DNA of 54,455 nt from Girardia tigrina. Lineage: Eukaryota. Position 1 is the stretch's first letter. Each line of letters begins with the position of its first letter. The stretch is taken from assembly GCA_001938485.1 (NCBI GenBank), contig MQRK01231253.1:35641-90095 (forward strand), given 5' to 3'. The notes beneath the pieces are model-generated. The model did not search any database, was not told where the DNA came from, and was given only the letters and a program-made list of their open reading frames with translations. This document shows, in pieces, positions 18,060 to 52,349 of this stretch. Position numbers and translations under genes: made by a program.

Positions 18060-19660
18060 TACAAATCTTTACCATATACTATCTAAGCCCAAAAATCACC
18101 GGATTTTTTTAATGGCCTTTTAAAACAAATGTGTACAAATATAAACCAATTGTACGATTTGTATAAAATAAAAATTTATATATAATTTCAACCCAGTTTA
18201 ATAATTTATTTCTTATTTTTTGATTATTTATGAGTTGAATAAAAACATTTTTTTATAAATGGCAACAAATATATCAGAGAGAAATATTTTGAAAACATCC
18301 AACTCAATTTATCAGAGATTAATGAATCTCTTTCTGAATTTTCGAAAGTTTATTTGATTTTCAATATGCATCCAAGAATAATGAAAAAATATAATATTGA
18401 CTAAAGATTGCGAGGAAGCTTTTCAAATATTAAAACAAAGGATTAAGATGCCTATCTTGAAAAAGAATTTATACTTTTAGAATTTGTACGGATGCATATC
18501 TCGATACAATCGGAACAGTGTTATCACGAAAGAGAGAATGAATGCGCATGCATCACATAAAATGAAAAAAATACCAGAAGTCTGAAGTAGAAATAGTTTA
18601 CTTCAGCTCTTATCATAATGATACAAAAAGAATGATTGAAAGGAAAATTGTACCAATTAGAGACACACTAAATAAACGGATGAAAGATGATACTTATAAA
18701 GATTGGACATAAATTTTATCATCAATAGAATATATGTTGAAGTGCAAAATTCAAGCTAACACAGAAGACTCACTAGCAGAAATGACATTTGCTAAAAGTT
18801 ATCCAGAAAAAAAGTTATAACATTAAGAAAAAGAGCAAAAATACAATAGAGATAAAATGAATATTTAAAACGGGGACAAAATCCTGATAAAAAAAGAAAA
18901 TGCAACAAAGAAACAAGATCGATGTATGGGTCCATCCACAGTGTATAACCTGACACATGAAAGAAGTTATGAATTGGAGTTAGAAGATGGTTGAAATTTG
19001 ATCAGGAATGCTGAATGGCTAAATCCAATTAAATCGGGTGGAATGTGAGCAATGTTTGATGTGTTTGAATGTTTTGTATTGAATTGGAATTTTATGTCTT
19101 CTACACAGATGGCTGATTAATATCTCAAATCTTATTATCTGAGACTAATTTGATTTAAATTAATATTTAATGCTTAAATACATTTTTAATTTTGAATGAT
19201 TTGATTAATTTTATTTAGAATTTTCAAACAAATAAATCAAATTAATACTTTTAAATAATTAATATTTATTTATATTTAAACTGTTGAAATTCGTGACAAA
19301 TTTTTTAAAGGGTTTTTCTTGTGTCAAATTGGTTCAGATACACTCATACCTCGCTATACGACCGCTCTTTATACGGCTTTTCGCTATAACGGCGTACTTT
19401 AATTATGGCACTTTTTCGATTTTTTTCGTTATACGGCCAAAAAAAATTTTGAAAAAAGTGTGAAAGAAAACATTAATGTACATATTTTCTAGGCCGTATC
19501 TAGGAACGTATCTAGGCCGTATATCGAGGTATGAGTGTATTTAGATTAAAATGATTAATATCTATTCATACCGATTGAAGCTCAACCGTGGATTGTGCAA
19601 AACGTGGTAAAAATGGTGAATATAATAAAAATTATAATTAGAGTGTGAGTTCGCATAACA
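18060..19660 (+). mobile_element. Second Ty3/gypsy remnant: RH/INT fragments, PPT and 3' LTR
   Basis: EAF..LKQ, CTDA..TIGTVLS (RNase H); W..IL..IEY (INT); FKTGDKILIK...MGP...SYEL...IRN; purine tract AAATCGGGTGGAA then LTR 19044-19660 (TGTGAG...TAACA). 5' boundary approximate. Confidence 0.8.
19341..19537. mobile_element. Tigger/pogo-type MITE inserted in the LTR
   Basis: TA TSD; TIR CACTCATACCTCGCTATACG / CGTATATCGAGGTATGAGTG; internal TATACGGC-like repeats. Confidence 0.88.
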
Positions 19661-19799
19661 ACAGATATATTTTAGTATTTCCATTTGTTAAGATAAAATA
19701 GGCACATTTTTAATTTCTTGAATGGTATCATGATTGTTATTGCTGTTAAGAGGTGGATTGTCATTACCACATCATGAACTTGTCGAATTTTTATTTTTT

Positions 19800-20310
19800 G
19801 TGAGAAAATATCCCCATTCAACGAAATAATGAACATTGGAATGAAAGTTTTCGAACAAAAAGTAAGGTTCCATCGTAAAAATAAAAAATAGAGATGTGAT
19901 ATTATTTTTGTCATCAGTTACTAGTGATTTAGGAGAGTGTTTCAATAATTCATTTTATTATGATGACTTTAACATAAAAATATGATGTTTCTGGTATCGT
20001 TTAGCAGTGAGCATACATTGGCGACCATCACATATAAAATGTTTAAGAAAACTTTGGTTGGATCACTTCTTGAAATATTGTCGAAAATGTATCTTGAGCT
20101 GCTCATAGAAGCTTTAGACTCATCTTTAAGTTTTCTTTTAAACTTTCTCATAGTTTTATAGTAAGCCTCAGTTGAGTTGTTATGTTCAACATTTTCAAAT
20201 ATCAGCTCCTATTGAGTCAGGAGACTTGTAAAATTTGGTATATAAATTTGGTACTGACAACTATTCTTGTAGGGTACGTCTTATTATTATAGTGAAAATA
20301 TCCTCAAATT
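19800..20310 (-). pseudogene. Possible Mutator (FLYWCH/MULE) transposase remnant
   Basis: Minus strand shows GYFHY, EHN and FYDGT motifs in the expected order; heavily decayed. Confidence 0.35.
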
Positions 20311-21164
20311 CTGTATAACTTAGTATATTTTTTACAAATAAAACAATTATTAAAACAAATGATAATTTTTAAATTTTTATTTTACTAATTTGTCATCAAT
20401 TTTTGAATTTTTAAAAGTAAATTCCATGATTATTTTAATTAATTTCAACGTGAAATAAATTCCAATAAAACATTATTTACAACGGAAAAGAAATCATAAA
20501 AAAAATCGTAGAAAAGTCTCCTAACACCTTTTTTTAATCTGTACTTGGCTGGTTTGAGATAAATTATAATTAATTAAAATTAAATAATACATTTCTCCTT
20601 ATTGGAGCAAGAACATTTTCAGGTGCTACCTGAAAATATAACACTCAAAAGTTTCACCATAATTTCCCAAATCCATTTCATTTTATTTGAGATTTCATCT
20701 TATAATCACATTTAGTCTTTCCGTTCAAGTTATTTAATAATATATTTTGAAATATTATTTTTAGTATTCATTTATTTATTTATTTATAAAAGATAAAAGT
20801 AATGTCAGGTTCCTGGAACTGAACTTTAGATTACTTTTACGAACATTATAAGTAAAATTTTATACAATAAGTTAAAAATATTTTAATGAATAAATTTTGA
20901 CCAAATGATTGAATAAACAGGAAATTTGTTTATTTTATTGTCATTAATATAGTTTTGCGATAAATATGAATTCTGAAATTTCCGATAACGATAATTGCAT
21001 AAACGCTACCAACAGTACCAAAAACAAAATTTTTTAAACCGAGGTTACTTTGAAATCAAGATGATCAACAAGCTCAAAGTTAAGTATAAGAATAGAATGA
21101 TCAACTTGAGTTCGGAGAACGAGCAGAGTGCTTGGTGCAGCAACAACAGTACGCATACAATTTT

Positions 21165-21470
21165 TCTTTTGCACAAACCATTTATACATAAAAATAAGGA
21201 AAAATAAATATGAATACTTAATTTATTATTTTTTTTGAATTTTCAAAATTGATTTTATAAAATTTTTTTTATTAAAATTTTATCCTGTTCAGATTTTTTT
21301 AAAAAACTTAATTTATTTTTAAAAAAAATCTTCATATCAGACATATTTCAAATATAAAGCTTCTGTTTAATCGTTAAGCATATTTTTAAAAAATCCTAAT
21401 CTAAGCTTTTCATTTTTATTTTATATTCTTATAAAATTTGCATTTTTATAATAATGTTTAAATAATAAAA
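21165..21470 (+). repeat. AT-rich dispersed repeat (inverted copy at ~39825-40205)
   Basis: Shared blocks TTGCAC...TTTATACATAAA, AATATGAATACTTAATTT, TCTTCATATCAGA, TTTTTATAATAATGTTTAAAT. Confidence 0.65.
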
Positions 21471-21662
21471 GGTAGAAAAAAGCAGATGTGCATGCTACCA
21501 CATCACTTCCTCTGGCAAAAATGTGAAATATTTCAGTTTTGGTTTCGATGAACAGAAATGATATATTGTATCACAAAGTTCAATATCGTGGTATAAAAGG
21601 TGAACAACATCAAATTTGCCTTGCAAAACTCTGAGCTATTTGTTCGGAATCGAAAATATATA

Positions 21663-22856
21663 CAGGGTGCGGCAGCTATTTGAGAACAAAATGACATAAA
21701 GTTCAAAAAATGAATATACAACAGAAAAATAACATTTATTACAATTTAAAATTTTACATATATTAACACGNNNNNNNNNNNNNNNNNNNNNNNNNNNNNN
21801 NNNNNNNNNNNNNNNNNNNNNNNNNNNNNNNNNNNNNNNNNNNNNNNNNNNNNNNNNNNNNNNNNNNNNNNNNNNNNNNNNNNNNNNNNNNNNNNNNNNN
21901 NNNNNNNNNNNNNNNNNNNNNNNNNNNNNNNNNNNNNNNNNNNNNNNNNNNNNNNNNNNNNNNNNNNNNNNNNNNNNNNNNNNNNNNNNNNNNNNNNNNN
22001 NNNNNNNNNNNNNNNNNNNNNNNNNNNNNNNNNNNNNNNNNNNNNNNNNNNNNNNNNNNNNNNNNNNNNNNNNNNNNNNNNNNNNNNNNNNNNNNNNNNN
22101 NNNNNNNNNNNNNNNNNNNNNNNNNNNNNNNNNNNNNNNNNNNNNNNNNNNNNNNNNNNNNNNNNNNNNNNNNNNNNNNNNNNNNNNNNNNNNNNNNNNN
22201 NNNNNNNNNNNNNNNNNNNNNNNNNNNNNNNNNNNNNNNNNNNNNNNNNNNNNNNNNNNNNNNNNNNNNNNNNNNNNNNNNNNNNNNNNNNNNNNNNNNN
22301 NNNNNNNNNNNNNNNNNNNNNNNNNNNNNNNNNNNNNNNNNNNNNNNNNNNNNNNNNNNNNNNNNNNNNNNNNNNNNNNNNNNNNNNNNNNNNNNNNNNN
22401 NNNNNNNNNNNNNNNNNNNNNNNNNNNNNNNNNNNNNNNNNNNNNNNNNNNNNNNNNNNNNNNNNNNNNNNNNNNNNNNNNNNNNNNNNNNNNNNNNNNN
22501 NNNNNNNNNNNNNNNNNNNNNNNNNNNNNNNNNNNNNNNNNNNNNNNNNNNNNNNNNNNNNNNNNNNNNNNNNNNNNNNNNNNNNNNNNNNNNNNNNNNN
22601 NNNNNNNNNNNNNNNNNNNNNNNNNNNNNNNNNNNNNNNNNNNNNNNNNNNNNNNNNNNNNNNNNNNNNNNNNNNNNNNNNNNNNNNNNNNNNNNNNNNN
22701 NNNNNNNNNNNNNNNNNNNNNNNNNNNNNNNNNNNNNNNNNNNNNCGTAAGAGTAGCTTCTGCCATGTCTACCAGCAAAAATAAAATTATGTAATTATAA
22801 CACACAAAAAGATATGGTGTCTATATTACGTGTTCTCAAATAGCTGCCGCACCCTG
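21663..22856 (-). mobile_element. Young Tc1/maT-like element, interior lost in an N-gap
   Basis: Perfect 26-bp TIR CAGGGTGCGGCAGCTATTTGAGAACA, TA TSD, ~1.2 kb; minus-strand ATG (MAEATLT...) runs into the gap. Confidence 0.8.
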
Positions 22857-22978
22857 TACATCTGTACAGATTATGAAAAGAGGCAGCATTTATCATTATA
22901 GGAACCTGTCGTTTGATGGCTTCCATTCCTCAATCCTACTGAGAATTGCTTCAGTAAGTTGAATTATATGGTTATCAA

Positions 22979-24765
22979 TAGGGCAACCTTTTTTGTTAAC
23001 TTTATTGAATAAAAATTTTTAAAAAAATCATATATATATAATTTATTTATTCATTGAACTTTGTTTTAATAATCATGATTTAATTGAAAACATATTTTTT
23101 AAAACGAGTCTTTGAATTGATAAAAAAACAATAAAAATTCAACGTTAAATAAAAATGTTTCCCGGAGAATTCGTACTCGGAGCAAAGTCGGAACTGTTTT
23201 GTAATATATGTAGTTTTACTGTCCAAATCGAAAGAAAGTCGTCTGAATATAAAAAACAGAAGTTCAAAGAAACATTGATCCGTGAAAAAAAATGTTGAAG
23301 AAATGCCGAGCATCTCAAAGCAGACATTTTTAAAAGATACAAACGAAGAATTTACGGAAAAACTTCTTCTTGGTTTCTGATCTTCAAATATACCGCTGCA
23401 TCGACTTAGAAATCAATAATTAAAAGATTTATTTGATTATAAGGATTTTTTTCTAGTTTCAGAAACAGCAGCACGATCACATCTTCCAATTATGCACGAA
23501 AGAAATATTTTACAACTGAAGAAACATTTTAAAGAAAAATTTTTTTTATTATTATTGATGATAGCGAAATTAATAGGAAGAAATATTTAAATACTTTAGC
23601 TAGTTGTATTGAATGGCCGCATAAGATTTCACATATTAATGGTGTTGAATTTCAATGGTCTATGAATTATCATATTGTCATATATACAATTGAAAAGACT
23701 TTTGAGAAATATCAAAGTGATTTTAAAAATATTGAAATAATTATTTCTGATTCTGCGAAATACATGATTAAAGCAGTAGAAGATATAAAGAAAACATACA
23801 ATGAAATTCAACATGTTCAGTATCTTCTACATCTGCTTCATAATTGTGTTATGAAAATTCGACTATTTTATTCAAATATTGACAATATTGTGGCAACAAT
23901 AAAACTTGCTTCACATAAAAATAAAACTGTTCAATCAAAATTTAGTGAGATTGGTCTTCCATCAAGTGTTGTTGTCACAAGATGTGGAGGTTCGTTAGAA
24001 GCAGTGATGTATTTTTGTGACTTTTTTCCCAAAGTTAAAATCATTATTGATTCATGTGAACCGAACGGAATATTGATGTCAAAAGCAAAAGAAGCATTAA
24101 TTTACCAAATATAGCAAATGAACTTTTAAATATTAAACTGAAGTATGGAGTATTGGTAGGAATTATGAAAGAATTTGAAAACGGGAAATACAACATTAGA
24201 ACAGGTTATGAAGTGATTAAAAATTTAACATATGAAATTGATAAAGCCGATATATGCGCATATATTGATGATAGGCTAAGTAGGAATGATGTTGAAAAAT
24301 AGCATTATTGAAAAATGATTGACTTTCTCCATTTAAATATCTAATTTTGGGAAATTGTCCTGCAACTTCAATAGTTGTTGAAAGAAGTTTTTCAATGCTG
24401 AAAAAAACTCTTAGAAAGAGACAGAAATTTTAATGCAGAAAGTGTATAAAAATATTATAACAAATCATCACTTTCTGATAATACAAAAATAATTGAAGAG
24501 TATTTGCCTGATTAGTCCAGTCATTCGGAATAAAATAAAAATTACTAAATCGTCATTTTCCTTTATGAATTTAACTTTGATATAAATAATCTATATTTAA
24601 CTGAAAAATTTTTTTTATGTTTATGTTAAAGAACAAAAATAACAGATGCAGTATCTTAACAAATTTACCATTTTCTAATAAATGTTATACAATTCATGAT
24701 ATTTTTAAAATCAGTAAGACGTTGCAACTTTTTAAAATTGATTTGCAACGTTTTCTGTTGCCTTA
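22979..24765 (+). mobile_element. hAT transposon
   Basis: Short TIRs TAGGGCAAC / GTTGCCTTA; degenerate 8-bp TSD GTTATCAA / TTTATCAG. Confidence 0.75.
23155..24512 (+). pseudogene. hAT (CGGBP1/DUF659-like) transposase, disrupted
   Basis: LFCNIC, SNIPL, IIIDDS, SDSAKYMIKA, HxxxxxHLLHN, VVTR(W>C), CPATSIVVERSFSMLK. Confidence 0.85.
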
Positions 24766-26018
24766 TTTATCAGACATATTTGTATTAATGAGGAACACAC
24801 GAAAGAGCGACTAAACACAAGGTTTTAAATAAATCAACAAAGATGGTCGAAAAGACTACCTTATGAACATGCTGGCTTACACCAAGAAACTAGAAATACC
24901 GATTGTAAATAAAGTTATATGAATATCTTTCTGAATTTTAAATGTTGAAATTTTTATTTTTTAAAACAAGTTCTGATCATATCGTCATTGATTGCAAAAA
25001 CGACGTAATAGTTTGAAAAACCCTAAAATGATAGTCAAATACGATTTTAGAGATTATAGAATATTTCGTGTTTCATTTTACTTAAAACTCTTGATTTTTG
25101 AAAACATAATTTAAAATAATTATAAAATTACTTATTTTACAAAAATCTGAAAGATGATAATTTTCTTTAGACTTGTAAAAGTAATTTAATAAACAAAACA
25201 AGTCTCAATTGGAAATAATTACTTTAATTAACATATGAAAAGATTCATTTTTTTATTTTATAATTTATACTTTAAAATCATCTTTAATTATTTTGTTTCT
25301 TATTATTTTAGAAACTGATTTTATTTTCGCAATTATTCTTTAATAATTCATTAAAATAATAAAGAAAATTCTTCGTCGTCTGATTTGTATCGGAAGGACA
25401 GTCAGAATTAATCAACATTCGAAAAACTGAAGAACACTTAAACCAGAAGTTGATAAAGTAAACTTTAGGAAAAAATTCATTGATAAAACAAATTAACTTA
25501 AAAATGAAATAAAATTTAATTAATTATTTTTTTTCATAATTATAATTACATTTAAACGTAATTTAATTATTATTACTATGATTGTTTTGATAATTATTAA
25601 TTTAATATTATTGATGGTGACTGGTCGTTTCATCACGTTAGCGCTCCGTGAGGTGTTATCGCTTTCTTTGTTGTCATCATAAAATTTACTGCTTTATGGT
25701 TTGTTCGTAATTTAAATCGCGTACTGAAAAAATGTTTAAAATATTAGGTGAAATGAACAATCACTTATAACACTTTTCGAGTAGAACTTTAACCAATCTC
25801 ATGTTTTCGCATCGTCTTTGACTCGTCTGCAATTACTTGTTCATTGTTACTGCCATCTATCAGTAAACATACAACATCTATTGGGTCAAATGATGCATCA
25901 GTATCTAATATAAATTATATGATAATCAGAACAATAAAGCAAAATTTTAAACTCTTTTGAAACGACCGTTCAATAAAATGACCTTGATGAAATGTCAGCC
26001 CTTTTTTGACAAAGGACT

Positions 26019-26549
26019 TGTGAGGAATATTTTAAATTTGGTATGTTGAAATTGGTTTGTTGAATTTTGTATGTTGAGTTTAGCATTTGGAAATGTGTTT
26101 CTCCCACCCAGATGGAAAATTGATAATTTAGATGTTCACGATAAATAATTATTCGGATATAATTTACATTTTAAAGTACAGCATAAGATATTTAAAAAAA
26201 TTAAAAATATTAAATCTTTTCAAATTTTCATATTAAAATTTAAATAAAATAAATAGTTTTAACTAAGTTTCGAATTAAATAAATTTTCTTTCTCTATATA
26301 AAATAATTTTTAAATAAAATTAATATGTAAATAAAATTAATACCAAAATTACCAAATTTGAACTGTAAAAATAAAATCTGAAAATAATGAAAAATTTGTT
26401 CGAATAATTGTTTATTAACAAACATTAACAAAAAAATTATCAATTTAGAACGATGTCGAATGACGAGAGTTTTGCTGAGAGTTGTCCAAAAGACAATTCT
26501 GACTGTATTGAAAATAAAAGTTTGAAAACCCATGTTGGTGTTCTTAATA
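26019..26549 (+). repeat. Solo LTR
   Basis: TGTGAGG...CTTAATA with exact 5-bp TSD GGACT. Confidence 0.85.
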
Positions 26550-27914
26550 GGACTATATGATATTTTTATTTAATACATTATTAAGTAATATTTTGCTTAA
26601 GTTTATTTTAATTATGAAAATACTTAGATGGTTACCAAACCAGATGTCCTAAATAACCTGACGCTTCAAATTTACAGTAAAAATTATCGACAGACTCAAG
26701 ATAGCATAACATATACCAATGTCACTGAACCAAAACTTATAAGAAATCATTAATTTCGATCGAACCGATCATGGAATTATTAATTTCTGCAAAATCGAGA
26801 ATAAAATAAATCAGAATCTATTTTATATTTTTCGACATATCGTGGAAGATATAAGATCAAAAGATTTCTATATCGAAGAAGCCAAATCTCAAGAAAATTT
26901 ATTCCAAAAAAAAGTTAAATTTAGTGGACCACATTTTTGATATTCACCGACAGAAGACATTAATCAATGCTCTAAAAGAGAGAGCAGCTTTTCCAATCCG
27001 TCTAAATCAACTAAAGAAAATCTTAGAACCAAGAAATTTCAATAAGGAAATTTCAATAAACCATACGATGGAAACTACGAGAAACCAGTTGTACGTTATG
27101 GCTTACAACAAATATTCACACACGTCAAGATTGCCCCCCAAAATATTAAGATTTGCTATTGTTTCAGAGAAAAAGAGTGTATTAGTACTTGAAACTTGCA
27201 TTACATAAGATAATTTTGACTATCAATATTTCAAGAAAGATTTGCAGCAATGTGATTTGGAGAAGAATGTGATTTTAACGATAAAAATGCCATTATATCG
27301 TTGCTTTTTTAAACACATCACTGTCCATCAATACTGTTTTGTTTGAAAATAATTTCTTTTGTACTGAATGATTTTAAAATTCAATCAACAACTACGAATT
27401 ATAAGCTTCACAAGCCATTTTAAAGTTTATTATTCCAGTGTTCGAAATCATGGCCAGTAAAGAAAATTAAATCCAGTTTCATCAAACTATAGCAACTGAG
27501 AGTCTTTGATCAACCTTTTTTTATAGATATATTTTATGTGAATTTAAAACATCGAAATAATTGCGTTTATCGCCAAATTTAACGGTCCTTTTCCTAGTAA
27601 CTCCAAAATGTTTTAAATAATGGAATATCATCCTCTGTGATTTATTAATTTTTTTTGTTTTTTAAAAAAAACATTTTTTCACCCTTTCTTGAGGTAGTTT
27701 ATATCGGCAAGAATTATTTGTTCTTCTTACAGTCATTTAGTCTTTCGTTCAAGAGGAGCTGTAAGGGCCTTCATTGACGTAACAGAGCCAATCGTGACAG
27801 TAACCTTTAAATAAAAAATGTAGACGACTTACGTTACGGCCGGGGAAGCATACAAATTCGAGCGGTTTAAACTGCGAGTTTTTGAACTTCGACCCCGTAA
27901 GACGCGATGATTTA

Positions 27915-28091
27915 AACTCTTTAAAATTAAATATTTTTGAAAGATTTAGAAACATTTTTCGAATAATCATTAATAATACAAAAACCAAATTAGAATGATG
28001 TCAAACTGTGAACGATTTTCCGCGAGTTGTTATGACTCTATATGTGATAATAATACATGTTCAAATAAAAACTGTCCTAATGCTCTTAATT
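27915..28091 (+). repeat. 3' part of an LTR of the same family
   Basis: TTAGAATGATGTCAAACTGTGAACG...GCTCTTAAT matches the 3' ends of the solo LTRs. Confidence 0.65.
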
Positions 28092-28298
28092 ATTTCTCAG
28101 TTATTGTAAATAATATTGTAAACTATATAAATTAAAATTAAAAGAATGATGTCAATTACATAAATTATTTTATGGTTATTTGAAAGAAACATTTAGATAA
28201 TAAACGTTTACATAAATTTGATATTCGTAAATTGTTTCAAATATATCAAGTTATGTCAGAATTTTGAAACTAATAAAAATATCGATTGAATTGTTATA

Positions 28299-29571
28299 TT
28301 GGGTCGGCCAAAAAGTCATTGCGTTTTTTACTAAAATATTTATTATCAAAAAATGACATGGATGCACAAATATTTTTACACGATATACTGCCAATTATTT
28401 TCTATCACTTTCTTCCACCTTTCCGGTAGCTTCATTATTCCAGATTCATAAAAACCTTTGCCTTTGTCAGCAAAAAAGCGTCTAGGAACGATTTGATGTC
28501 ATCATCACTGGCGAATGTTTTTCTGTTTCAGGATTTCTGCAGTGATCTAAATAAGTGAAAATCCGATGGGGCCAAGTCTGGAAAATAGGGTGGGTGCGGC
28601 AAAACCTCCGATAAGAGTTTCTGGCGAGTGGTCAAACTTGTATGTGGTCTTGCGTTATCATGCTGATTTACAACTCCTTTTCGATTTGCCAATTCAGGAC
28701 GTTCCTGTTGAATTGAATGAGCCAATGTCTCCAGCTGACTACAATATCTGTCTGAATTGATGGTTTCATTCCTCACTAGGAGTTCAAAAAACACAATTCC
28801 TTTAAAATCCCACCAGACGGAAAGCATAACCTTATTTTGGTGAATTTCTACTTTTAGGATCGTTTTCGCAGGCTCACCATGTTTTGTCCATGATCATCGG
28901 CGTTCCACATTGTTGTAAACAATCCATTTTTCGTCACCCGTAATCAAGCGCTTCAAAAATGGATCACTTTGTTCTCGCTTCAAAAGAGAATCGCAAATGT
29001 CTATACGTTTCACCAAATGAATTTCTTTCAGTTCATGTGGTAATCACATATGGAGTTTACTGACGAATCCTAGTTTCTTTAAATGACTTCCAACACTTGA
29101 TTTTGATATTTCCAGAGTCTGTGCAACTTCTCCTGTCGTCATATGTGGATTAGATTTGATCAGTGCTGTTATTTTGTCGATATCAACTTCAACTGGTCGA
29201 CCGGAGCGTGGTGCATCTTTCAGATGAAATTTTTCAGAACGAAATTTAAAAAACCAGTATTGACACTGTCGAAGATTTAAGGAGTCACTATCATATACAA
29301 AACATATCTTCTTATGAGCTTGCACAGCGGTTTTCCCTTTGCGAAAATAATGTAACAAAACATGACGAATATGCTCATTTTGATTTTCCATTTCGAATTG
29401 ACGGTAAAGTAACAAATTAAAACAAAATCAATTAATATTTTGTATAAACATAGTCTGAAAATTAAGGTTTCAGAATATATAATTGAATTTAAATTTTATC
29501 ACATCGTTATATAATTTCAAACTTTTAATTAGGACGTACTCAAAAACGCAATGACTTTTTGACCAACCCAA
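28299..29571 (-). mobile_element. mariner (DD34D, mellifera-like TIR), defective
   Basis: TA TSD; TIR TTGGGTxGGCCAAAAAGTCATTGCGTTTTT; TGDEKW, HDNARPH, PDLAPSDFHLF. Confidence 0.95.
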
Positions 29572-30049
29572 TAAAATAAGTTAGTAAACATATTAGCATT
29601 TTAGTTTTATAAAAGTCGAAAATAAAGTCGTAAATTTATAAAATTAAAATTTAATAATAAATAACTTATAAATATTTATAATTTGATTAAAATTTATATA
29701 TTGATATTTATATTTAGCAAGTTTTATATCAGGTTTGTGTGAAGTAAGAAAACATCGTTCCTGATAAATTTATTTGAAAAATATTTCATTTTTATATTAA
29801 TAAAGGTTTGTGTTATGAATTATATCTTTGATTACGAACCCAACAGTTAAGAAAGTTTAGCTAAGGAATTATAAAATAATAAGGAATAATAATAACAATA
29901 AAATAATAAAAATAATAATAGTGTTAATAAAATTTAATAAATAAATGTTTTAAATATTTCTGAAGGATAACTTGAAAATGTTAATAAATGTATCAAAAGT
30001 AATTTTAGGTGGTTTAAACTACAAAAGTATCATTAATTCTCAATATTCA

Positions 30050-31655: not shown

Positions 31656-31696
<41 letters not shown>

Positions 31697-31761
31697 GCAA
31701 GACTGCTACAATTATCATTATTTATAAATATTTACATATATATTTAAAATAAGAAAACTTT

Positions 31762-31895
31762 TGTGTAGTGTTTGCATGTTTAAATGCTGTGTATTGATTT
31801 TGGATTGTACCTTTTCTAATCAGATGGATGATTAATATTTGAATTCTTATAATCTGAAACTAATTTATTTAAATTTAGATTTAATATTCAAATTT
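31762..31895 (+). repeat. LTR 5' fragment related to the 19044 LTR
   Basis: Shares CAGATGGxTGATTAATAT...ATCTGAxACTAATTT with the 19044 and 47239 copies. Confidence 0.7.
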
Positions 31896-32051
31896 TTATT
31901 ATTGTAACTTTTAAATATTTTTTCATATTTTTTAATATGAAAAAAAGGATATAAATAAACTGTTAACAAAAAATAATTACTTTTATTTTTGTAAAATTTT
32001 AAATAATTAAAATCCAATTAATGTTTCAAAGTAATTTTTTATTTTAGCCAA

Positions 32052-32606
32052 TGTGAGTAGGAATATTGTTTAATTATGTAATTATGCAATAATGTTTAAT
32101 TATGTAATCAATATTGTTTGTTACTAACAGAAGTAACTAAGATTAATTGCATAATAATTATTGAGTGATTGTTGATTAAATTGATTGTGTAAAGTCAATT
32201 GTGATGATACAATAATATTGGTTATTTGTCTGATGTTGAATGTATGCTGAATGTTTGTTGATAGTATGTATGTCTTTGTGATTGTAAACCAANNNNNNNN
32301 NCTTTGAAAATATGAGTCATTATAGCATCACTATTTTCCCCATTAAATAGACTAGATTGTTGATATTTTGTTATAGTAATAAATCTTATAATCGGAATTT
32401 GTTATTTGATATTAAATGGATAACAGCCAATAAAATTTAAATTAAATAATTTAAATAAAATAATTTTCTTCAAGTTAGTTCAGATTGTAAGGAGGAGTAT
32501 TAAACATTGAGTGATGGATTTAAATGCGAGCGATGCTACGGATTGTCATAGAGATGATCAAACATGTCAATGTAATAAATGTTATATCAAATATGTGAGT
32601 TCTCTT

Positions 32607-32610
<4 letters not shown>
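32052..32610 (+). repeat. Divergent solo LTR
   Basis: TGTGAG...GTGAGTTCTCTTAACA; 3' end matches the 19044 LTR end; TSD obscured by (TA)n. Confidence 0.65.
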
Positions 32611-37897: not shown

Positions 37898-37955
37898 TTG
37901 TCTAAACTAAACTTTATTTTAATTAAAATAGTATAAAGTAGTAAATGATAAAGAG

Positions 37956-38456
37956 TATTAAGAACATTTAGACAAGTCCCATTTGAATTTTTATTGCAAT
38001 TACATTTAGAGTCATTACAACTCTCAGAAGGTCTTTCGTCGTTTGCCATCGTTCTAATTGGTTTTCTTATTTCTATTTTTAATCATGATTATTCAAACAA
38101 TTTTTCTAAGTTATTTTTAAAAATATTTAACCTCTAAAAAATATTAATTAAAAATATTAATTTTTACCATTTCTCAATAAATCCCAAAATAATTAAAATG
38201 TCATCAAATTATTAAAAATGCATTTAATTTAAATTATACTAAAAATTATTAAACTTAATTTTAATTGTGAAATTAAAGATATGAATTTATAAAATGATTA
38301 TTTTAATTATGTTCGAATAGTCAATCTCTTTAAATTTAATAAAAAATACCAATTTCCATCTTGGTGGGAGAATCACCATTCTAAATTCAACATACTTAAA
38401 TCATCATACAACATCACTACATTTACATATTCAAACAATTTAAAATATTCCTCACA
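37956..38456 (-). repeat. Solo LTR
   Basis: Minus strand TGTGAGG...CTTAATA with exact 5-bp TSD AAGAG. Confidence 0.85.
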
Positions 38457-38724: not shown

Positions 38725-39252
38725 TATTAAGAACACCAATATGATTTTCCACACTTTTACTTTTATAATATTTTGATTTGTCTTTGTAACAATTCTTACT
38801 AAAACTTTTGTAATTTGAAATCTAGATAAATTGATAAGACTTGATAATTACTTGTTTGAAACAATTATTGGAAAAAATTATTATTTTATACATTGATATT
38901 ATTTTCATATTTTATTTTTAAAATTTTACTTTAATAATTTTTTAATTATTTTTTTTAAAAATTATTTTAATTTTAAAATTATTTTATTTTAAAAAATTAT
39001 GTAATCAATTTAAAAATTAAGTGAAAACTTATTTACTATATAAAAATGTTTAATATTTAAATATTCAAAGATTTAATATTTTATTAGTTGAAATTTTTAA
39101 ATATCTTATGTCCTGGTTTAAAATAAAAATCATGCTCGAACAATTAATCATCACAAACATCCAAAATACAAAATTTCCCTCCAAATACTAAACTCAACAT
39201 ACAAAATCCAAAATAGAAATTTCCACATACTAAATTTAAAATAGTCCTCACA
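38725..39252 (-). repeat. Solo LTR
   Basis: Minus strand TGTGAGG...CTTAATA; TSD ATGAT/AAGAT (4/5); collinear with 26019-26549. Confidence 0.8.
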
Positions 39253-40722
39253 AAGATATTGTTTCACTTCAAAAATCATTTATTACAATCACCACATGTT
39301 ACGTTCAACATAGAAAGTGTTTAGGTGTAAGGTCCATTTTAGGAAAGCAAGGTTTAAACAAAAACTTAAAAAGGTCATTCTGTATTGCATTTCAGAAATT
39401 ATCAAAATAACCATGTACAATAAATATTTACATAAAAATTAAACCGCATGGTTAATTAAAACTATAAAATAAATCTTTGAAGTACAAAAAAATCATTTGA
39501 AAACTTAAAAATGATTCTTAAAAGGAAATTTATTTAATATTTATTTACTAAATTAAAATTATTAGGTTCATGATTAAAATTGGAAGTCATAATTTTGTAA
39601 ACTTTATTTCTACTACAATTTTCATTTTTGAAACAAATTTATGAGGAACAATATTTTAATTACATAATCCAGATCTCAAAATTCTAAATATAAATAACAG
39701 TATTGATAAATATATAAATTAATTATTAATTAATTTATCAATCAATTATTATGTGTTTTAATAATTAAAATATTGGAAAAATTTAAGGCGGAAAATATTT
39801 TAAATTAAAATCTTAAATGAAAATTATATTATTTAAACATTATTATAAAAATACAAATTTTATAAGAAAATAAAAAAAAATGAAAAGTTTAGTTTAAAAT
39901 TTTTTTAGATGAAGATTTTTTAAAAAATAAAAATTTTATAAAATTACAAAATTGAAAAGTTTAGATTAAGATTTTTCTAAAAAATATGTTAAGCTATTAA
40001 AATAGAAACCTTATAGAAATATTTCTGATATGAAGATATTTCAAAAAATGAATTGAAAGAAAAGAATTTTAACGAAATTTTTCTTGGATAAAATGTTAAT
40101 AAGAGAAATATTTTAAAATTTATTTTGGAAATTCTAAAAAAATAGTAAATTAAGTATTCATATTTATATTAAATTATGTTTATGTATAAAAGGTTCGTGC
40201 AAAAAAAATGTTACTCTAAAATTTGTTCAAAAAATATGTTCTTGTGTTGCACAAATAAAATTTTAAATAATGTCTATTTCCGATTCTTCTTTAAAGCAAG
40301 ATTTGAAAATTATATCGAACCTAACAATTGATATAATCATACTTATTATTATCAGTATTATAAGTTGTAAGTTCATTATTATCTTTAACACATTTTGAAA
40401 ACTCTGAAATTACATTTCCTGATGGGGACAGCTCTCAGCATTGAGGCAATTAAGAATGCGACTCCCATTTGTTAATAATCAAACGCCAATCGATATTTTT
40501 CGTCCTAAAGAGGATGGTTTTCCATTCAAATAAATTAAATCGATCAGGACAATTCACAACATTAAAGTCTCTGGCAGTAAACTGATTATCTATACATTCA
40601 AGTGTTGGATTCGTAAATCTTGATCCATTGTAAACATGTTGATTTTCAATCATATGAGACTCTTTTGAATTAATATTTTATAGGCTTAAAGCTTTAAATA
40701 TACATATATATATTATAAACTA

Positions 40723-42005
40723 TTGGGTTGGCCAAAAAGTCATTGCGTTTTTAAGTACGTCCTAATTAAAAGTTTGAAATTATATAACGATGTGATAAAA
40801 TTTAAATTCAATTATATATTCTGAAACCTTAATTTTAAGAATATGTTTGTACAAAATATTAATTGATTTTGTTTTAATTTGTTACTTTACCGTCAATTCG
40901 AAATGGAAAATCAAAATGAGCATATTCGTCATGTTTTGTTGCATTATTTTCGCAAAGGGAAAACCGCTGTGCAAGCTCATAAGAAGATATGTTTTGTATA
41001 TGGTAGTGACTCCTTAAATCTTCGACAGTGTCAATACTGGTTTTCTAAATTTCGTTCTGAAAAATTTCATCTGAAAGATGCACCACGCTCCGGTCGACCA
41101 GTTGAAGTTGATATCGACAAAATAAAAGCACTGATCAAATCTAATCCACATATGACGACAGGAGAAGTTGCAGAGACTCTGGGAATATCAAAATCAAGTG
41201 TTGGAAGTCATTTAAAGAAACTTGGATTCGTCAGTAAACTCCATATGTGATTACCACATGAACTGAAAGAAATTCATTTGGTGAAACGTATAGACATTTG
41301 CGATTCTCTTTTGAAGCGAGAACAAAGTGATCCATTTTTGAAGCGCTTGATTACGGGTGACGAAAAATGGATTGTTTACAACAATGTGGAACGCCGATGA
41401 TCATGGACAAAACATGGTGAGCCTGCGAAAACGATCCTAAAAGTAGAAATTCACCAAAATAAGGTTATGCTTTCCGTCTGGTGGGATTTTAAAGGAATTG
41501 TGTTTTTTGAACTCCTAGTGAGGAATGAAACCATCAATTCAGACAGATATTGTAGTCAGCTGGAGACATTGACTCATTCAATTCAACAGGAACGTCTCGA
41601 ATTGGCAAATCGAAAAGGAGATGTAATTCAGCATGATAACGCAAGACCGCATACAAGTTGGACAACTCGCCAGAAACTCTTATCACTGGGTTGGGAGGTT
41701 TTTTCCGCACCCACCGTATTCTCCAGACTTGGCCCCATCTGATTTTCACTTATTTAGACCACTGCAGAATTCCTTAAACAGAAAAATATTCGCCAGTGAT
41801 GATGACATCAAAGCGTTCCTAGACGCTTTTTTGCTGACAAAGGTAAAGGTTTTCATGAATCAGGAATATTGAAGCTACCGGAAAGGTGGAAGAAAGCGAT
41901 TGAAAATAATGAACAGTATATCGTGTAAAAATATTTGTGCATCCATGTCATTTTTTGATTATAAATATTTTAGTAAAAAAGGTAATGACTTTTTGGCCAA
42001 CCCAA
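40723..42005 (+). mobile_element. mariner (DD34D), defective; near-identical inverted sibling of 28299-29571
   Basis: TA TSD, TIR TTGGGTTGGCCAAAAAGTCATT; TGDEKW, HDNARPH, YSPDLAPSDFHLF. Confidence 0.95.
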
Positions 42006-42192
42006 TATTTTAATCATTACATGTACTTTATCTTCTGTATAAAATATTTTACTTTCGTTATTTAGCCATACGTTCAAATATTAAATTAATTTTCGAGTTA
42101 TATTATTTGATTTTACTCTGTTTTTAAATATTCGAATTATTTTTTAATTTTACTTTTCTCTTTTTCCTGGTCACCTTTAAAAAGAATAATTA

Positions 42193-43700
42193 TTTGTTTA
42201 TCAAGTATGAAATTTGTATGTATGATTACAATAAATTCAAATAGTTATAATTTGACAAATACACACCATGTTGTTGTTCAGGTTTTTTGTTTGATTGCTA
42301 CATACACATTAATAAAAAATAAATAAAATTATTGATAACTTGTTTTAAAATTCAGTATTTTAAAAAATTGAAAGGCAGAAATTTGAACTATTAGGCAATT
42401 CCTACTTGGAACCTCAGCATCAGAAACCATGTGAAACATCAACAGTGTATTTGAATACAATGCTACTACACATTAGACAGTCTCAAATTGGTTAAGGATA
42501 TTCGTAAAAGGTAATTTTAACATCAATAATAAATCTTAGGGTTGTCAAGTATCGCAGATAGACAAAGACAAACTGAAGGTAACCATGGAATAGGATCAAT
42601 CAAAAAATGCTTATGATTTATCGCTTACTTTTTTGATGTTATAATGCAAAAAATATTGAATGACTTGGCTCAAATTTGTTGTTGGGTTCATGATTTTTTG
42701 CAGTTAAAACTAGTAAATCAACAAATTAAAATTTTTATATTCGTTCTTTATGTAGACAGAAATCTACTTTACCAACAAAGTTTTTAAAATTTAAAAAATG
42801 TAACACTTAAAAAATTTTAATAAAAAAAAACAATAAAAATTAATATAAACTACTTATAATTTATAAGTAAATATCTTGCAATTAATATTGTTCGGGAACT
42901 CCGAATTTTCCGTTTTTTTCCCATTTTGGGACTTTAAAAATTTTTTTTCGATCACAATTTTACATAATCATTTATTGTCATCGAAAATAAGTTATTGTGC
43001 AAAGTAAAAAGCCTTCAAAAATAGGTTTCTAAATTCACTATTTAATTAGATATCTAGTGTTTTTAAATTTATAACCTCTTTGCTACTTTCGGTACTTCAA
43101 ATTCTATTAAAAATATTTTATTTCAAACCTTATTAAAGTTTTGCATTTAAAATCTATAAACAAATAATTTTATTTGTATGGGGAAATATGTCAGTGGATT
43201 TTAGATTTATGGAATGCAGTTACTGTGTCGTGTGTTCAAGGTGGCTTTTACCGTTCTAAAGTTTTGTTGAAATCCTCTTTTTTATTTCATAGATAGGATC
43301 AATCACAAAATGCTTATTGTGTTTTCAGTTACATTATCAAACTCAAAGAAACACATCTGCGTTTGGTAAACAAGTCGACTCCCATCTTGCTTCACAACAG
43401 CACAAAACCACATACTGCACTTAAGGCCACGACAAAACTTCAGGAATTCGAGTTTAAATTTCTTCATCATCATCCATACTCACCAGACTTAGCCCAAACT
43501 GACTACATTTTCTTCTGAAAATTTAAGGATTCTCGCCCACCAAATGTTTATTCAAAAGGCATCAACAAGCTGCCACTCAAATGGCAAAAGTTTATCGATA
43601 AAATGGGTGTATACTTTGAAGAATAATATAAATATTTGTAATGGTAAATTATCAATATACTTTAACTTTAATTCTACAAATTTCATACCTGATGACCTAA
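42193..43700 (+). mobile_element. Old mariner deletion derivative with internal insertion
   Basis: Degenerate TIR (ATCAAGTATGAAATTTGTA / TACAAATTTCATACCTGAT), TA flanks; HTH remnants ~42370-42520; HPYSPDLAQTDY at ~43470; WQKF..KMGVYFE. Confidence 0.7.
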
Positions 43701-45501
43701 TATTACTTTATAAATCAACTTTGAACGCAGAACATATACATTACATTACAAAATTACTTTTAATTTTATTTTATAAAACAAATCCTATCATTAAAGGAAT
43801 CGCATATTAAATGAATTAAAACGAATTAATATTATTTATGTCTTTAAATTTCTAGAAAACACAAGTGATACTGACTCTGAATTTTTATGACAGAATGTTA
43901 ATGAATGGTTAACAAGAAAATATTATTTTTATCTAACCTAAATGTTTTTCTTATAACCGACAAGATATAAAGTATATTTACTATACAAAACAGCATAATT
44001 CTGAGTTGCTCATAAATTTCATTACTATTCACACTGTTGCCCGGTGGTTACTGAAAGATTTGTATTTATTTTTACTAATAAAAGTTTATTGCAATTTAGT
44101 TCAGTGTGTAATAAATATGTCGAAATGACGCGTTTTATTAAATTTATTTAATGATCTCATAATCCTTGCCATTTTCTTCTCAAATTTCGATTATTTTGAG
44201 AAACATTTTCTATATGTTCAACTAGTGCATAAATCTTTAGGATTACAGTAAGATGGTAATGAAAAAATAGTTAAAAACATTTACATTGATATGTACTTTA
44301 ACAGAAAACTAAGCTTTGTAACTTTTTTCGTTCATAAAAAAATAAGAATGCTCATAAAAATTCAAAAATAAATATTTTTTATCAAGTTTTATTAAAATAA
44401 AAATAATAAGACATTGCAGTTGATATGTTATTCAACTAAACATTATAAATCTTTGCACATACCGATGAGAGGAAAATAAGGTTGTCTTAAGTTAAAATTA
44501 GTAGTGTGAGGATCTTCGTGAGCTTTTTAATTAAAGCTAAAAAAAGAAAGACATTTTAAATTAATTTTTTAAAGTATTTTTTACAAGTATATTTGGAGGT
44601 ATATTTTTAGAATATATTTTAAAGTATAAGTAAATATTAAAACAGAAATGTTTAGATTTTTAAATTAATAAAAATAGTAAATTAAATAGATTTAAAACAA
44701 ATTAAATTTAAATTAGTTGGTAAATTAAATAGTTTGGAAAACAAATTAAATATAACACATTAAGAATAGTTAAACGGAATAACGAAAGTTTTAGAAAGTA
44801 AATACAATAGGAAGAAAAATAAATTTCATAATAAATATTAAAATTAACGAAATTTAATAAAATATTTATTTAAAAGAAAATACAATATTTAAAAAAATAC
44901 AAAATTAAATACGAAGTTAATGTATAAACTATTTGAAAATTGTTTTTTTTATAATTAAAATAGTTTTTAAATTCAAATATTTTATAAAATTAAAGATAAT
45001 ACAACATTTCGAAAATAATAAATCTGCATATTTATATTTACAATTATTTTAATTTTATTGGTTTATTATTATTTTTATATTTTTATTATGAAAATAAAAG
45101 TTTCGAAAACGTCTGAACTGTCATCTGAAAATAATACCGAGCCGTACAAATAGAAACCTAAGTAAAATACTTGTTCCAGATTTGAATTAATAAAAAAAAT
45201 TAAAGAAATAATTAACATTGAAATTGGAATTTTGCATTCCAATTTCAATTCATTAAAATTATATAATATATATTTATATATGTATATGTATATACATTAT
45301 TGAGAAGTTAAAATTTTTATGGTTTAAAAATTCGTTTGTTAAAACGAATTATTATAATTAATGTTAGTTTTTGATATCTAATAAAGATAGTTCAATATCG
45401 ATTTTTTTAATTATTAGAGAAAAAATATTAAAACGAGTTACTTATTAAAAAAAATTAAATTGTGCTTTTCCTGAACGGTGACAAAAATGAATATGTGACC
45501 G

Positions 45502-46113
45502 ATGGTTTTGAGAAACCGTGAAATAAATCCATCGGATGAAAATTCCGATCAAAAAATGTTCTCCGGTGTTACGACAAGAAAACGAGCCGCTCTGAAAGCG
45601 CTCGAGAATGCGAATCTCGCCAATAGAGACGCAGTGAACGAATTGAAACACATTACGACGAGATTGAAACCGATTGCGGTGATCGAAGAACCGGAATCGG
45701 AACCGATGGATATTTCGATCAAAAATATCGAAACCGAATCAATCGATTACGACTACCTCGTAAAAAATCCGCTAACATGGCAAAAATATTCGGAAATCGA
45801 AACCGAAGAATCTCGAAAATCACTTTTGAAAACGATTATCGAATGACGAAACGCGATTCGGTCTCATTTCAGTGAGTATACCGAAAATGGATTACCGATC
45901 TGGTTGTTGAGCCGGTTTGACAATCATGACGAGTTCATGAATATCGATTATTTAACGAAAATCAATGATCATTTGATCGAAAATGAATTGGAGTCGAAAA
46001 AAATATTATTATGATTGTTAGGAACATCAGGAGCCAGTTGGGAAAGTTTGAATATACAAATTATTTGTAATAATCATTCGGAAATTAAAGGTCATTTGAA
46101 ATTATTAATTTAA
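45502..46113 (+). pseudogene. Intronless destruction-box ORF resembling a cyclin A/B N-terminus; two in-frame TGA stops
   Basis: RAALKALEN fits D-box RxxLxxxxN; EPMDIS; IDxD...NP...YxxI; weak cyclin-box echoes (LSRF, LLGTS); frame continues past TGA at 45844 and 46012. Confidence 0.5.
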
Positions 46114-47238
46114 AGTTATAAAATAAATTAGAAGACTTTTTTCTGGAACAAAAATTAAAAAAATGCAATTAAAAATCAATATTAATATTATAATAATTTT
46201 TCCGGTTTATAATCGATAAAAATTACAAAACAAAGGTTTTACAAATAATTTTGTGTGAATTGAAAAGTAAGTAAAAATACATTGTTTAAAAACTGGCGAG
46301 TGAAAAAAAGAGGAATAAAAATTTGTAATTTGTGTTAAAATAAAAATTTCTCGTCAATGACTCAGTGTTATTATCACCCGAGTGATGTGACCCACATCTA
46401 GCAATAATATTTTAATAATTGACAACATATAATAATACCAAAAAAAATCTACCAAGACATCTAGAATAAAATTTTTATTTTTACAAATAAATTCATGAAA
46501 ACTTTTTTTCAACTTTTCATTTACATCTCAATCGCAAATTTCATTATGATTCTCTCCTATAGCAATGATCAAATGATCAATTTAATTAATTTTCGTAAAT
46601 TATTAATAAATTGTAATTCATTCAAGGAAAACTATTACTAAAATAATGCGAAAAAAAATAAAATTATTTCTCCCTTGTTTTGGTAATGGTAGAATTCATA
46701 AAATAATAATAAATATAATCAAAATAATAATTATAAATAATTATATTGTGTTATATATTATTATATTTTATTAAACAAAAAATATTTTTTTAAATTTTAC
46801 CGTTTTTTTGTAAAAAATTTAATTTATTAATTTAATAAATATAAAAATAATCCAATATTAAGTCATAATGTTTGTTAAATCTTTCAAATAAAATATCATT
46901 TATACTTACATGAACGGGTTCAATGCAAAAAAATAAAAGTAAATGGACAGCTACTGCAACTGGCAAAATGTAATCACCGATGAATATAAAATTAAAAGCA
47001 AAAAATTTGATTGGTCAAAATTTTAAATAATGATAATATGAAATTGAGAATAATTTGTCGTAAGAGAAATAAAAAATAAATGAATTTATTGATTGTTTTT
47101 CAACCAAAAGAATTTATGTAATAAACATATAAAAACGAAACAGAGCTACGAGGTTGTCTGAAATGTTTCTGTAAAACATTTTCCTGAATTAGTTTCGATC
47201 TCTTTGATCATCATCATCAATCAACACCATTTGAAAAC

Positions 47239-47620
47239 TGTGAGGAATGTTTACTGTTTTGTGGTTGAATGTCGTGTGTTGGTTTTAGATTGTGTCTCTC
47301 TTACTCCGATGGCTGATTAATATTTTTGATTCTTAGCTGATGAAACTAATTTAATTTAATATTTAAATTTATTTCAAATTTAACATCGTGGTCAAATTTA
47401 TATTTCGTCCTTTGTTACATAACAGTAAAAATTTATTAGTTCGTACACAGTGTAATAAATGAGATTTTTGGCTTAAATTTTATTTTAAATTTTTTGAATG
47501 AATAAATCAAATTAACATTTTTTAAATAATTAATATTTATTTTAATTTCAACCAATCGAATTTTAAGTACATATTTTAAAAGGACCTTTAAATGTATCGA
47601 ATTGATCAGAAAATTGGATA
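47239..47620 (+). repeat. LTR copy related to the 19044 LTR, 3'-truncated
   Basis: TGTGAGGAATGTTT...GATGGCTGATTAATAT...AATAAATCAAATTAA...TTTAAATAATTAATATTTATTT. Confidence 0.75.
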
Positions 47621-48046
47621 TAACGTAACATAATTATTAATTTAGTCAAATTATGTCTATGAATAAAGATAAAGCTTTACAATAAATTTTACTGTTTAGT
47701 ATTCCGCACGTTTCGGTCGGTTTATCAAAGAAACAAAACTCTTCCGTAAAGACACAAGTTAATTTATTCGCCTATATAATCAGAATCTTAAAACAAAAAC
47801 ATTTATTGGTCATATATTCATTATATTTTTGATTAAAATCGTCGATAAAAATTGTTGTATTAAACGAGAGAGAATAAAATACTCAACAAATTTTAATCAA
47901 CTAACAATAATTATGAGACAAACTCATCACAAGTCCAATGGATTATCCAAATGTGATTTTAATAATAGTTATAAACAATGTATGACTTCTCGTAACAATA
48001 ACCAATAATTGACCATGTTTCATTTCGACTTAAAGCTGATATAGAT

Positions 48047-48992
48047 TGTTAAGATCATTGAGTCAATTACTATTATAACTTTTATTAGTATCAAATTTAG
48101 AGTTTTCACAACTTATCCAAAGATCGTTCATAGTTTGACATCATTCTAACTGGTCTTATTTCTATCTTTAAAAAAAGGATTATTCAAATAATTTTTTAAA
48201 ATCTTTCTAAAATAATTATTATTTTGTAATTTCCAAAAATATTTGTTAGAATTAATAATTTTAACCATTTCATTATAAGAACAATAAATAAATAAAAATA
48301 TTTTATCAAATTATAAAAAATGAATTTTGTTAGGTTTGAAATCATTAATTGAAGTCATAACACGTAAAAATATATTTCTATAACAACGATTTTTAAAAAA
48401 ATTTTTGAGGAATAATTTTCTTATTGTGTACGAATCAGAAATAAAAATATAAATGATCGAAAGTCTAGCCAACAATGTGACATTTGTTATCAAGCAGTTT
48501 GCTTTGAGCACTCAATTCGTCGTTGTAATTAATGTCAATAGAACTTTTCATATTCTTGTCATTGTTTTATAAATTAATAAATTTGTATATTTTAATACTC
48601 TTAACTTACTAGTGTGATGTTAGAGACTAATAAAATTAATTTTTTGATAATAGTAACCGTAAAAAATATAGATTCTGTACTGGGGTCCAGCAGACCACAT
48701 TTGGTACTCAACGTGATTTTTTTTCTTAGTTGTTTAAGGGTTAAAATGTCTTTTAATTCAATTATTTAAATTTGATTTTAATTGCTAATTTCAAAAATTT
48801 AAACTTATAAGATTATTATCATTTTGTTATTGTAATTGTAATTAATTATATTCGAAAAGTCAAAAACCGGTTATACAAAAAATACCAATTTCCATCTAGG
48901 TTGGAGAATCACCATTCCAAATTCAACGTACTCGACACAACATACAACATTCAAAAATTAACACATTCATACAATTTGAAATATTCATCGCA
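48047..48992 (-). repeat. Solo LTR containing a ~430-bp insertion
   Basis: Minus strand TGCGATG...CTTAACA, exact TSD TAGAT; collinear with 37956-38456 except ~48316-48740. Confidence 0.8.
48316..48740. mobile_element. Possible piggyBac-like insertion (only one end recognisable)
   Basis: Ends AGGG|TTAA with subterminal GGGGTC..GACC; extra sequence relative to the sibling LTR. Confidence 0.4.
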
Positions 48993-52347: not shown

Positions 52348-52349
52348 TA

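What the first reader, a model, noticed from the sequence alone, without database searches (positions are those of the whole stretch)
19044..48992. LTR family whose 3' end carries a conserved Cys-rich micro-ORF reading out through the LTR terminus
Seen: seven LTR copies, some very divergent in DNA, end in a collinear ~32-codon frame: MSNDESFAESCPKDNSDCIENKSLKTHVGVLN (26453+), MSNCERFSASCYDSICDNNTCSNKNCPNALN (27998+), MDLNASDATDCHRDDQTCQCNKCYIKYVSSLN (32514+), MANDERPSESCNDSKCNCNKNSNGTCLNVLN (38049-), ISNYKSFSKNCYKDKSKYYKSKSVENHIGVLN (~38820-), DCAKRGKNGEYNKNYN*SVSSHN (~19593+, in a true 3' LTR after INT and PPT), and a frameshifted copy at 48141-. The final LN codons are the LTR end (CTTAACA). 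Inference: translation starts in U5 and crosses the PBS, giving Gag or an accessory protein a Cys-rich, possibly metal-binding N-terminus; each solo LTR would donate a promoter plus start codon to flanking DNA.
Basis: partly seen in the sequence, partly recalled or inferred. Interest (0 to 1): 0.7.

Follow-up and report, generated by a model that had tools for sequence, protein, structure and literature searches.

The report
Gypsy capsid gene starts inside LTR
In a large family of retrovirus-like jumping genes the capsid gene's reading frame begins inside the terminal repeat and runs unbroken through the repeat's end and the primer site, so the protein likely starts with a short floppy tail written over RNA signals; the layout is known from yeast Ty1, and the cysteines are probably not a metal-binding module.

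Summary
The seven LTR copies are real (4 of 7 keep ATG and open frame). The LTR-end/primer-site junction occurs 2,868 times in the genome (control 13). In full elements the frame continues into gag as one ORF of about 380-400 codons, in seven subfamilies with 22-32-codon extensions; 35 of 47 distant Gag relatives share the M-x(5-38)-N|MAT layout. The details differ: dN/dS of the extension is 0.50-1.15 (gag 0.07-0.29); AlphaFold leaves it unfolded; no distant relative has two Cys there. The stretch also carries an RNA hairpin with compensatory changes (which explains the Cys/His-11 column) and an AATAAA 34-42 bases from the LTR end, so the ATG is likely in R, not U5. What selection keeps is the start codon, the phase and a polar make-up. 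Translation itself and the transcription start were not observed. No support for solo LTRs founding genes. It is a Ty3/gypsy element with a Ty1-like layout; earlier notes of this scan report the same layout on other DNA.

The parts
26019..26549 (+). Solo LTR, subfamily A, 531 bp, ends TG...TA, 5-bp TSD GGACT
26453..26548 (+). 32-codon ATG-led frame, the predicted Gag N-terminal extension; base 26549 is the A that forms ATG with the PBS in full elements
26478..26500 (+). Predicted RNA hairpin (9-bp stem, 5-base loop) over codons 9-16, with compensatory changes between subfamilies
26513..26518 (+). AATAAA, likely poly(A) signal, read as Asn-Lys
19044..19660 (+). 3' LTR of a decayed element; frame without ATG and with a stop; 197-bp inverted-repeat insertion at 19341-19537
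18480..19043 (+). Decayed integrase C-terminal region and polypurine tract before the 3' LTR
   Evidence: translation resembles the integrase end of full copies
27923..28091 (+). 5'-truncated LTR, nearest to subfamily C; 31-codon frame 27998-28090 open
31762..32610 (+). LTR, 3' part subfamily D (87%); 32-codon frame 32514-32609 open; N gap inside
37956..38456 (-). Solo LTR, subfamily C (93%), TSD CTCTT; 31-codon frame from 38049 open
38725..39252 (-). Old solo LTR, A-like (70%); frame stop-free but no ATG and no AATAAA
48047..48992 (-). Solo LTR, C-like, TSD ATCTA, interrupted by about 450 bp of other DNA; frame shifted

Best explanation
This is a Ty3/gypsy retrotransposon family whose gag reading frame opens at an ATG inside the LTR and runs without a stop through the LTR end and the primer-binding site into the capsid, so Gag is likely made with a 22-32-residue polar, predicted-disordered N-terminal tail. 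Shown: one continuous ORF; the LTR's last A plus the PBS TGG spell an in-frame Met, and N-M-A-T is simply LTR end plus tRNA complement. Inferred: transcription starts upstream of the ATG, so the ATG lies in R; the ribosome reads over an RNA hairpin, the poly(A) signal, a short U5, the integrase attachment end and the PBS. Selection keeps start codon, phase and hydrophilic make-up, while the letters are set largely by the RNA and DNA signals underneath. The primer is inferred to be tRNA-Arg(ICG).
For: Continuous ORFs: 382 codons in L114, 399 in L153, 390 in L159; 22 of 23 junctions listed among 30 subfamily-A loci have the 32-codon frame in phase (loci chosen by likeness to this stretch). 59 of 86 pattern-found junction loci with clean upstream DNA keep an intact ATG-led extension of 22, 26, 31 or 32 codons. 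Proteins from other assemblies show the same for A-E, H, I and one more subfamily. AATAAA sits at -36, -39 or -42 only, multiples of three. Subfamily C lost 3 bp of the hairpin stem, 6 bases in all, keeping frame and stem. Neutral simulation: P(open and ATG kept) 0.007-0.018 per lineage at 40% divergence; with an empirical mutation matrix P(open) 0.11-0.25, and hydrophobic residues 2-5 observed against 6.5-8.7 expected, P<=0.05 in 6 of 10 non-independent pairs. Three-base periodicity p=3e-19 in the extension, none upstream (p=0.64), and it persists outside hairpin and AATAAA (p=1e-5). 35 of 47 full-size distant Gags have an upstream extension, 7 start at MAT, 5 neither, against 18-43% expected from gene callers by chance. 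A distant family in the same genome has an 8-codon extension with AATAAA at -34 upstream of its ATG (10 of 11 junctions each). Residues 1-40 pLDDT about 35, capsid 41-200 folded.
Against: No ribosome, peptide or 5'-end data. The junction ATG has a strong context (A at -3, G at +4) and could be the start or a second start. dN/dS is 0.50-1.15 for the six gapless subfamily pairs with flat codon-position divergence, and the +2 frame gave values as low or lower. Frame +1 is also poor in stops (0-2 fixed per subfamily), so part of the openness is compositional. Subfamilies share ancestry, so the tests are not independent. Library proteins are gene-caller output and may come from the same or related hosts; their LTR boundaries were checked in DNA only for the family of P0014. 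Subfamily A has a short in-frame upstream ATG-stop whose effect is unknown.
Confidence: 0.8

Rival explanations
1. Gag starts at the ATG made by the LTR end plus PBS; the upstream frame is a by-product of RNA and DNA signals (hairpin, poly(A) signal, U-rich elements, attachment end) and is not translated.
For: dN/dS near 1; real hairpin and AATAAA constraints; strong context of the junction ATG; 7 of 47 relatives are called from MAT.
Against: Signals cover under half of the stretch; ATG and phase are kept across 7 subfamilies and extensions of 5-38 codons in 35 of 47 relatives; length changes are multiples of three; T is avoided at codon position 2 even at sites that differ (12% against 27-36%).
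Confidence: 0.12
2. Both AUGs are used by leaky scanning, giving a long and a short Gag (compatible with the best explanation).
For: Both ATGs are in frame; subfamily D has T at -3 of the upstream ATG; the junction ATG has A-3/G+4.
Against: The junction ATG is forced by LTR end and tRNA complement, so its conservation says nothing about use; two copies with long ORFs read K at that place (L159, L160), though these may be dead copies.
Confidence: 0.3
3. The Cys-rich tail is a functional metal-binding or lipid-anchoring module of Gag.
For: Cys codons are kept above a stop-free neutral null (2-4 observed, about 1 expected; P<=0.05 in 5 of 10 pairs); the TG of Cys-18 is invariant in 27 copies of A, B, D, E and lies outside the hairpin; eight subfamilies have Cys in the tail.
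Against: Spacing differs by subfamily, A has 2 Cys and H 1-2; position 11 varies C/H/Y/L within subfamily C and tracks base pairing; unfolded in the model; 0 of 35 distant extensions have two Cys.
Confidence: 0.12
4. Solo LTRs donate promoter plus start codon and found new host proteins.
For: Thousands of solo copies carry the ATG-led frame up to the LTR edge.
Against: Read-out ends after a median of 10 codons, longest 48, among 29 loci scored of 30 (one is gag itself); in the window 3-25 codons. Only 30 young copies were examined.
Confidence: 0.05

Closest known systems
Ty1 of Saccharomyces cerevisiae (Ty1/copia)
   Same: GAG starts before the PBS and the PBS is translated: 53-nt 5' UTR (PMC7969010, passages); PBS at RNA nt 94-104 and inside the GAG ORF (PMC4974528, passages). 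RNA signals overlap the first codons.
   Different: Other superfamily (here PR-RT-RH-IN, RT nearest Ty3); primer inferred tRNA-Arg, not tRNAi-Met; up to 32 codons in the LTR against about 13 by those coordinates; Gag here has two CCHC knuckles.
Ty3 of S. cerevisiae and Ty3/gypsy (Metaviridae) elements
   Same: RT best match Ty3 Gag-Pol, E 4e-38; domain order; capsid model nearest dArc, copia and Ty3 capsids (E 0.009-0.16); 5-bp TSD, PPT.
   Different: The Ty3 PBS is described as adjacent to the 5' UTR and bipartite, not in GAG (PMC4974528); here it is translated. Most copies end in TA, not CA. No named clade could be assigned.

Membership tests
Ty3/gypsy LTR retrotransposon | RT closest to Ty3/gypsy RTs | tested here: met
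   Ty3 E 4e-38, next 1e-23, retroviruses 1e-13 or weaker
Ty3/gypsy LTR retrotransposon | pol order protease, RT, RNase H, integrase | tested here: met
   ORF order in L155 and L160, read from translations
Ty3/gypsy LTR retrotransposon | Direct LTRs, TSD, PPT and tRNA PBS | tested here: met
Ty3/gypsy LTR retrotransposon | TG...CA termini | tested here: inconclusive
   21 of the 100 listed junctions end in CA, 79 in TA (counted from the list); TSDs confirm the TA end
Ty3/gypsy LTR retrotransposon | Capsid fold plus CCHC nucleocapsid | tested here: inconclusive
   zf-CCHC just under the Pfam cut-off; Foldseek top hits are Arc, copia and Ty3 capsids but none reaches E 0.001
Ty1/copia (Ty1 itself) | Integrase before RT; copia-type RT | tested here: not met
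Ty1-like layout | PBS inside the gag ORF | tested here: met
Ty1-like layout | gag AUG inside the transcribed R region and used | not testable with these tools
   only assembled contigs were on offer; inferred from AATAAA position and frame conservation
Zinc-binding Cys/His module | Three or four ligands at conserved spacing in a folded unit | tested here: not met
Env-bearing gypsy (errantivirus type) | env ORF before the 3' LTR | tested here: inconclusive
   none seen, but the 12 long stretches examined were gapped or deleted

The most novel reading that the evidence does not exclude
One sub-clade of a wide, unnamed gypsy group has lengthened its LTR-encoded Gag tail to about 30 residues and recruited Cys-18 and neighbours as a membrane anchor or metal site that stands in for a matrix domain, while the same bases fold a start-enhancing hairpin and carry the poly(A) signal; translation of the PBS has let it shrink from 18 to 7-9 matching bases, with full tRNA copies now lethal by frameshift.
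Probability: 0.12. Interest if true: 0.7.

Novelty: new variant of a known kind. Interest (0 to 1): 0.42.

Why it matters
It shows that the Ty1 layout is the rule in a broad gypsy group, so Gag starts in these elements are easily mis-annotated. About 100 bases carry peptide, hairpin, poly(A) signal, attachment end and primer site at once, with thousands of natural copies to measure how such layers constrain one another. The short, translated PBS and the retained tRNA copies make plus-strand transfer on a 7-9-base match testable from genome sequence.

Tried and rejected
RNA: only assembled contigs existed. One contig of RNA run X5 (753 bases) spans from 59 bases before the ATG across the LTR end into gag, and extension and gag depths are alike in X5 but 20-40-fold apart in DNA-like runs; contigs can join 5' and 3' LTR reads through R, so this places neither start nor poly(A) site. 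No poly(A) end among the 24 of 238 loose ends shown. A splice acceptor just before the ATG was considered; X5 and X6 show no joint there. Subfamily F (6 copies, broken gag, broken extension) looked like a natural control, but four copies share flanking DNA, so it is one dead insertion. dN/dS pairs with subfamily C (0.45-3.2) were dropped because the gap placement was wrong. The indel deficit in the extension (1 event in 77 copies against 28-38 per 100 bases upstream) is confounded by homopolymers and by how copies were chosen. Whole-region folding z-scores were weak, -0.45 to -2.2 in 6 copies. ARAGORN found no whole tRNA gene in 13 sources. The C-to-H exchange at position 11 as a metal-ligand swap was rejected after the hairpin was found. 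A genome-wide count of AATAAA spacing could not be run, so spacing rests on held loci. No clade name came or the papers.
Full report
Observation. The quoted peptides are at the stated places. The seven copies are LTRs or LTR pieces of one family: four have matching or near-matching 5-bp target duplications, one follows an integrase remnant and a polypurine tract, one is truncated and one has an N gap. Four of the seven keep an ATG-led open frame. The 531-bp copy at 26019-26549 has many near-identical relatives in the 1.43-Gb, AT-rich genome (1,869 candidates, 40 scored).

Does the frame enter gag? Locus L021 showed it first: the LTR's last A and the PBS TGG form an ATG, and the upstream frame runs through it. 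The junction pattern has 2,868 matches against 13 for the reversed control. I fetched 89 of the first 100 listed places and added L021. Of these 90, 86 have clean upstream DNA, and 59 keep an intact ATG-led extension of 22, 26, 31 or 32 codons, 7 have another Met, 20 are broken (the lengths 22 and 26 were chosen after looking). Seven subfamilies were sorted by eye: A, B, D, E (32 codons), C (31), H (26), I (22). Single copies carry one ORF of 380-400 codons from the LTR ATG to beyond two CCHC knuckles. Proteins from other assemblies show the same for these subfamilies and one more. RT is nearest Ty3 and the pol order is that of Ty3/gypsy.

Is the extension under selection as protein? By dN/dS, hardly: 0.73, 0.86, 0.50, 1.05, 1.15, 0.91 for the six gapless pairs, with flat divergence over codon positions, whereas gag codons 4-60 give 0.07-0.29 where computable and a clear third-position excess. 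By frame and make-up, yes: no subfamily has a fixed stop in this frame, against 0-2 in frame +1 and 4-11 in frame +2; a neutral lineage at 40% divergence keeps ATG and open frame in 1-2% of runs; hydrophobic residues are fewer than in stop-free neutral runs in most pairs; periodicity is strong in the extension and absent just upstream, also outside the RNA signals. These tests share ancestry and are not independent. The AlphaFold model from a six-sequence alignment leaves residues 1-40 unfolded and folds 41-200, with Arc, copia and Ty3 capsids as weak best matches.

What else the bases encode. AATAAA lies at -36, -39 or -42 from the junction in 53 of 58 intact copies. In a distant family of the same genome it lies at -34, upstream of that family's ATG and outside its frame, which marks it as a poly(A)-type signal and not an Asn-Lys constraint; the ATG at -96 is then in R and U5 is short (inferred). 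Codons 9-16 form a hairpin: in 27 copies of A, B, D, E, 89% of cells pair, 5 of 9 pairs change on both sides, and slid controls give 27-56%; RNAalifold finds the same stem unprompted. The double changes come mostly from one lineage, D, so they are few events. G-U pairs fall on the sense strand. Subfamily C has a stem shorter by 3 bp, which keeps the frame. Cys-11 versus His-11 is a stem position, so that column is no evidence of a metal ligand; Cys-18 lies outside the stem and stays unexplained.

How wide is the layout? Among 47 full-size representatives from a search of 1.84 billion proteins, 35 begin with a 5-38-residue extension before an N|MAT-like junction, 7 begin at MAT and 5 neither; 3 of the 35 have one Cys, none has two. 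So the layout is clade-wide and the Cys-rich version local. For these proteins the junction is inferred from the peptide, except for the P0014 family, checked in DNA.

Primer site. Subfamilies A-E match the tRNA end for 7-9 bases, H and I for 10-11, the distant family for 18 in frame. Eighty LTR ends carry 16 or more bases of tRNA complement; where such a copy joins gag, the frame is shifted (3 of 12 examined). One copy reaches an anticodon loop reading GCG, which fits inosine-bearing tRNA-Arg (the family identity is partly recalled, and no whole gene was found).

Mechanism. Shown: continuous ORF, forced N-M-A-T at the junction, hairpin covariation, AATAAA position. Inferred: start of transcription upstream of the ATG, use of that ATG, a disordered polar tail, tRNA-Arg priming. 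RNA contigs are compatible but cannot place ends. Solo-LTR read-out is as short as random DNA gives.

Comparison. Ty1 has a 53-nt 5' UTR (PMC7969010, passages) and its PBS at nt 94-104 inside GAG, while Ty3's is not in GAG (PMC4974528, passages). The element works like Ty1 in layout and is a Ty3/gypsy by descent. Seven full-text searches (listings only) gave no paper describing this layout in a gypsy element; they are word searches of an open-access library and do not show absence. Passages of PMC4202319 and PMC6238403 had nothing on it; no supplements were read. Notes of this scan, looked up after my reading was set, report the same layout on other genomes; none matched this protein or this element in the same genome among the 8 of 15 shown.

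Verdict. Real, the central inference largely right, the metal-binding and gene-founding parts unsupported. New variant of a known kind; interest 0.42.

Noticed in passing
G000, 80 places; L163-L174, L176: LTR ends followed by 16 or more bases of the primer tRNA's complement, although subfamilies A-E match it for only 7-9 bases. Of 12 examined, 3 (L168, L172, L174) join the tRNA copy to gag out of frame, 1 is followed by a second junction, 8 by other DNA. L176 reaches the anticodon loop and reads GCG, as expected if inosine of tRNA-Arg(ICG) was copied (tRNA identity partly recalled).
   Followed up: partly
L199-L210: Distant family with 243-bp LTR, 8-codon Cys-free extension and a full 18-base PBS read in frame as MATTPGH; some matches lie in open frames of 1,200-1,500 codons.
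   Followed up: partly
window 26549, 37956, 38725: Most subfamilies end in TA instead of CA, a synonymous change in the last Asn codon.
   Followed up: partly
window 9971-14929 +: A second, unrelated gypsy element with about 115-bp LTRs whose gag-like frame has an ATG inside the PBS region and is stop-free a few codons into the LTR.
   Followed up: no
window 19341-19537: 197-bp element with terminal inverted repeats and TA duplication inside the 3' LTR.
   Followed up: no
window 28296-29573 - and 40721-42008 +; 49378-50875; 50951-52352; 53024-54280: Several mariner-like transposons, two of them 96% alike.
   Followed up: no
window 16790-17491 +: 233-codon frame with a RING-like Cys pattern followed by Asn/Lys-rich repeats; no Pfam hit.
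   Followed up: partly
window 726-3451: 125-bp inverted repeats around frames (1921-2928) that resemble a protein-primed type B polymerase fragment (resemblance recalled, not tested).
   Followed up: no
   Followed up: partly
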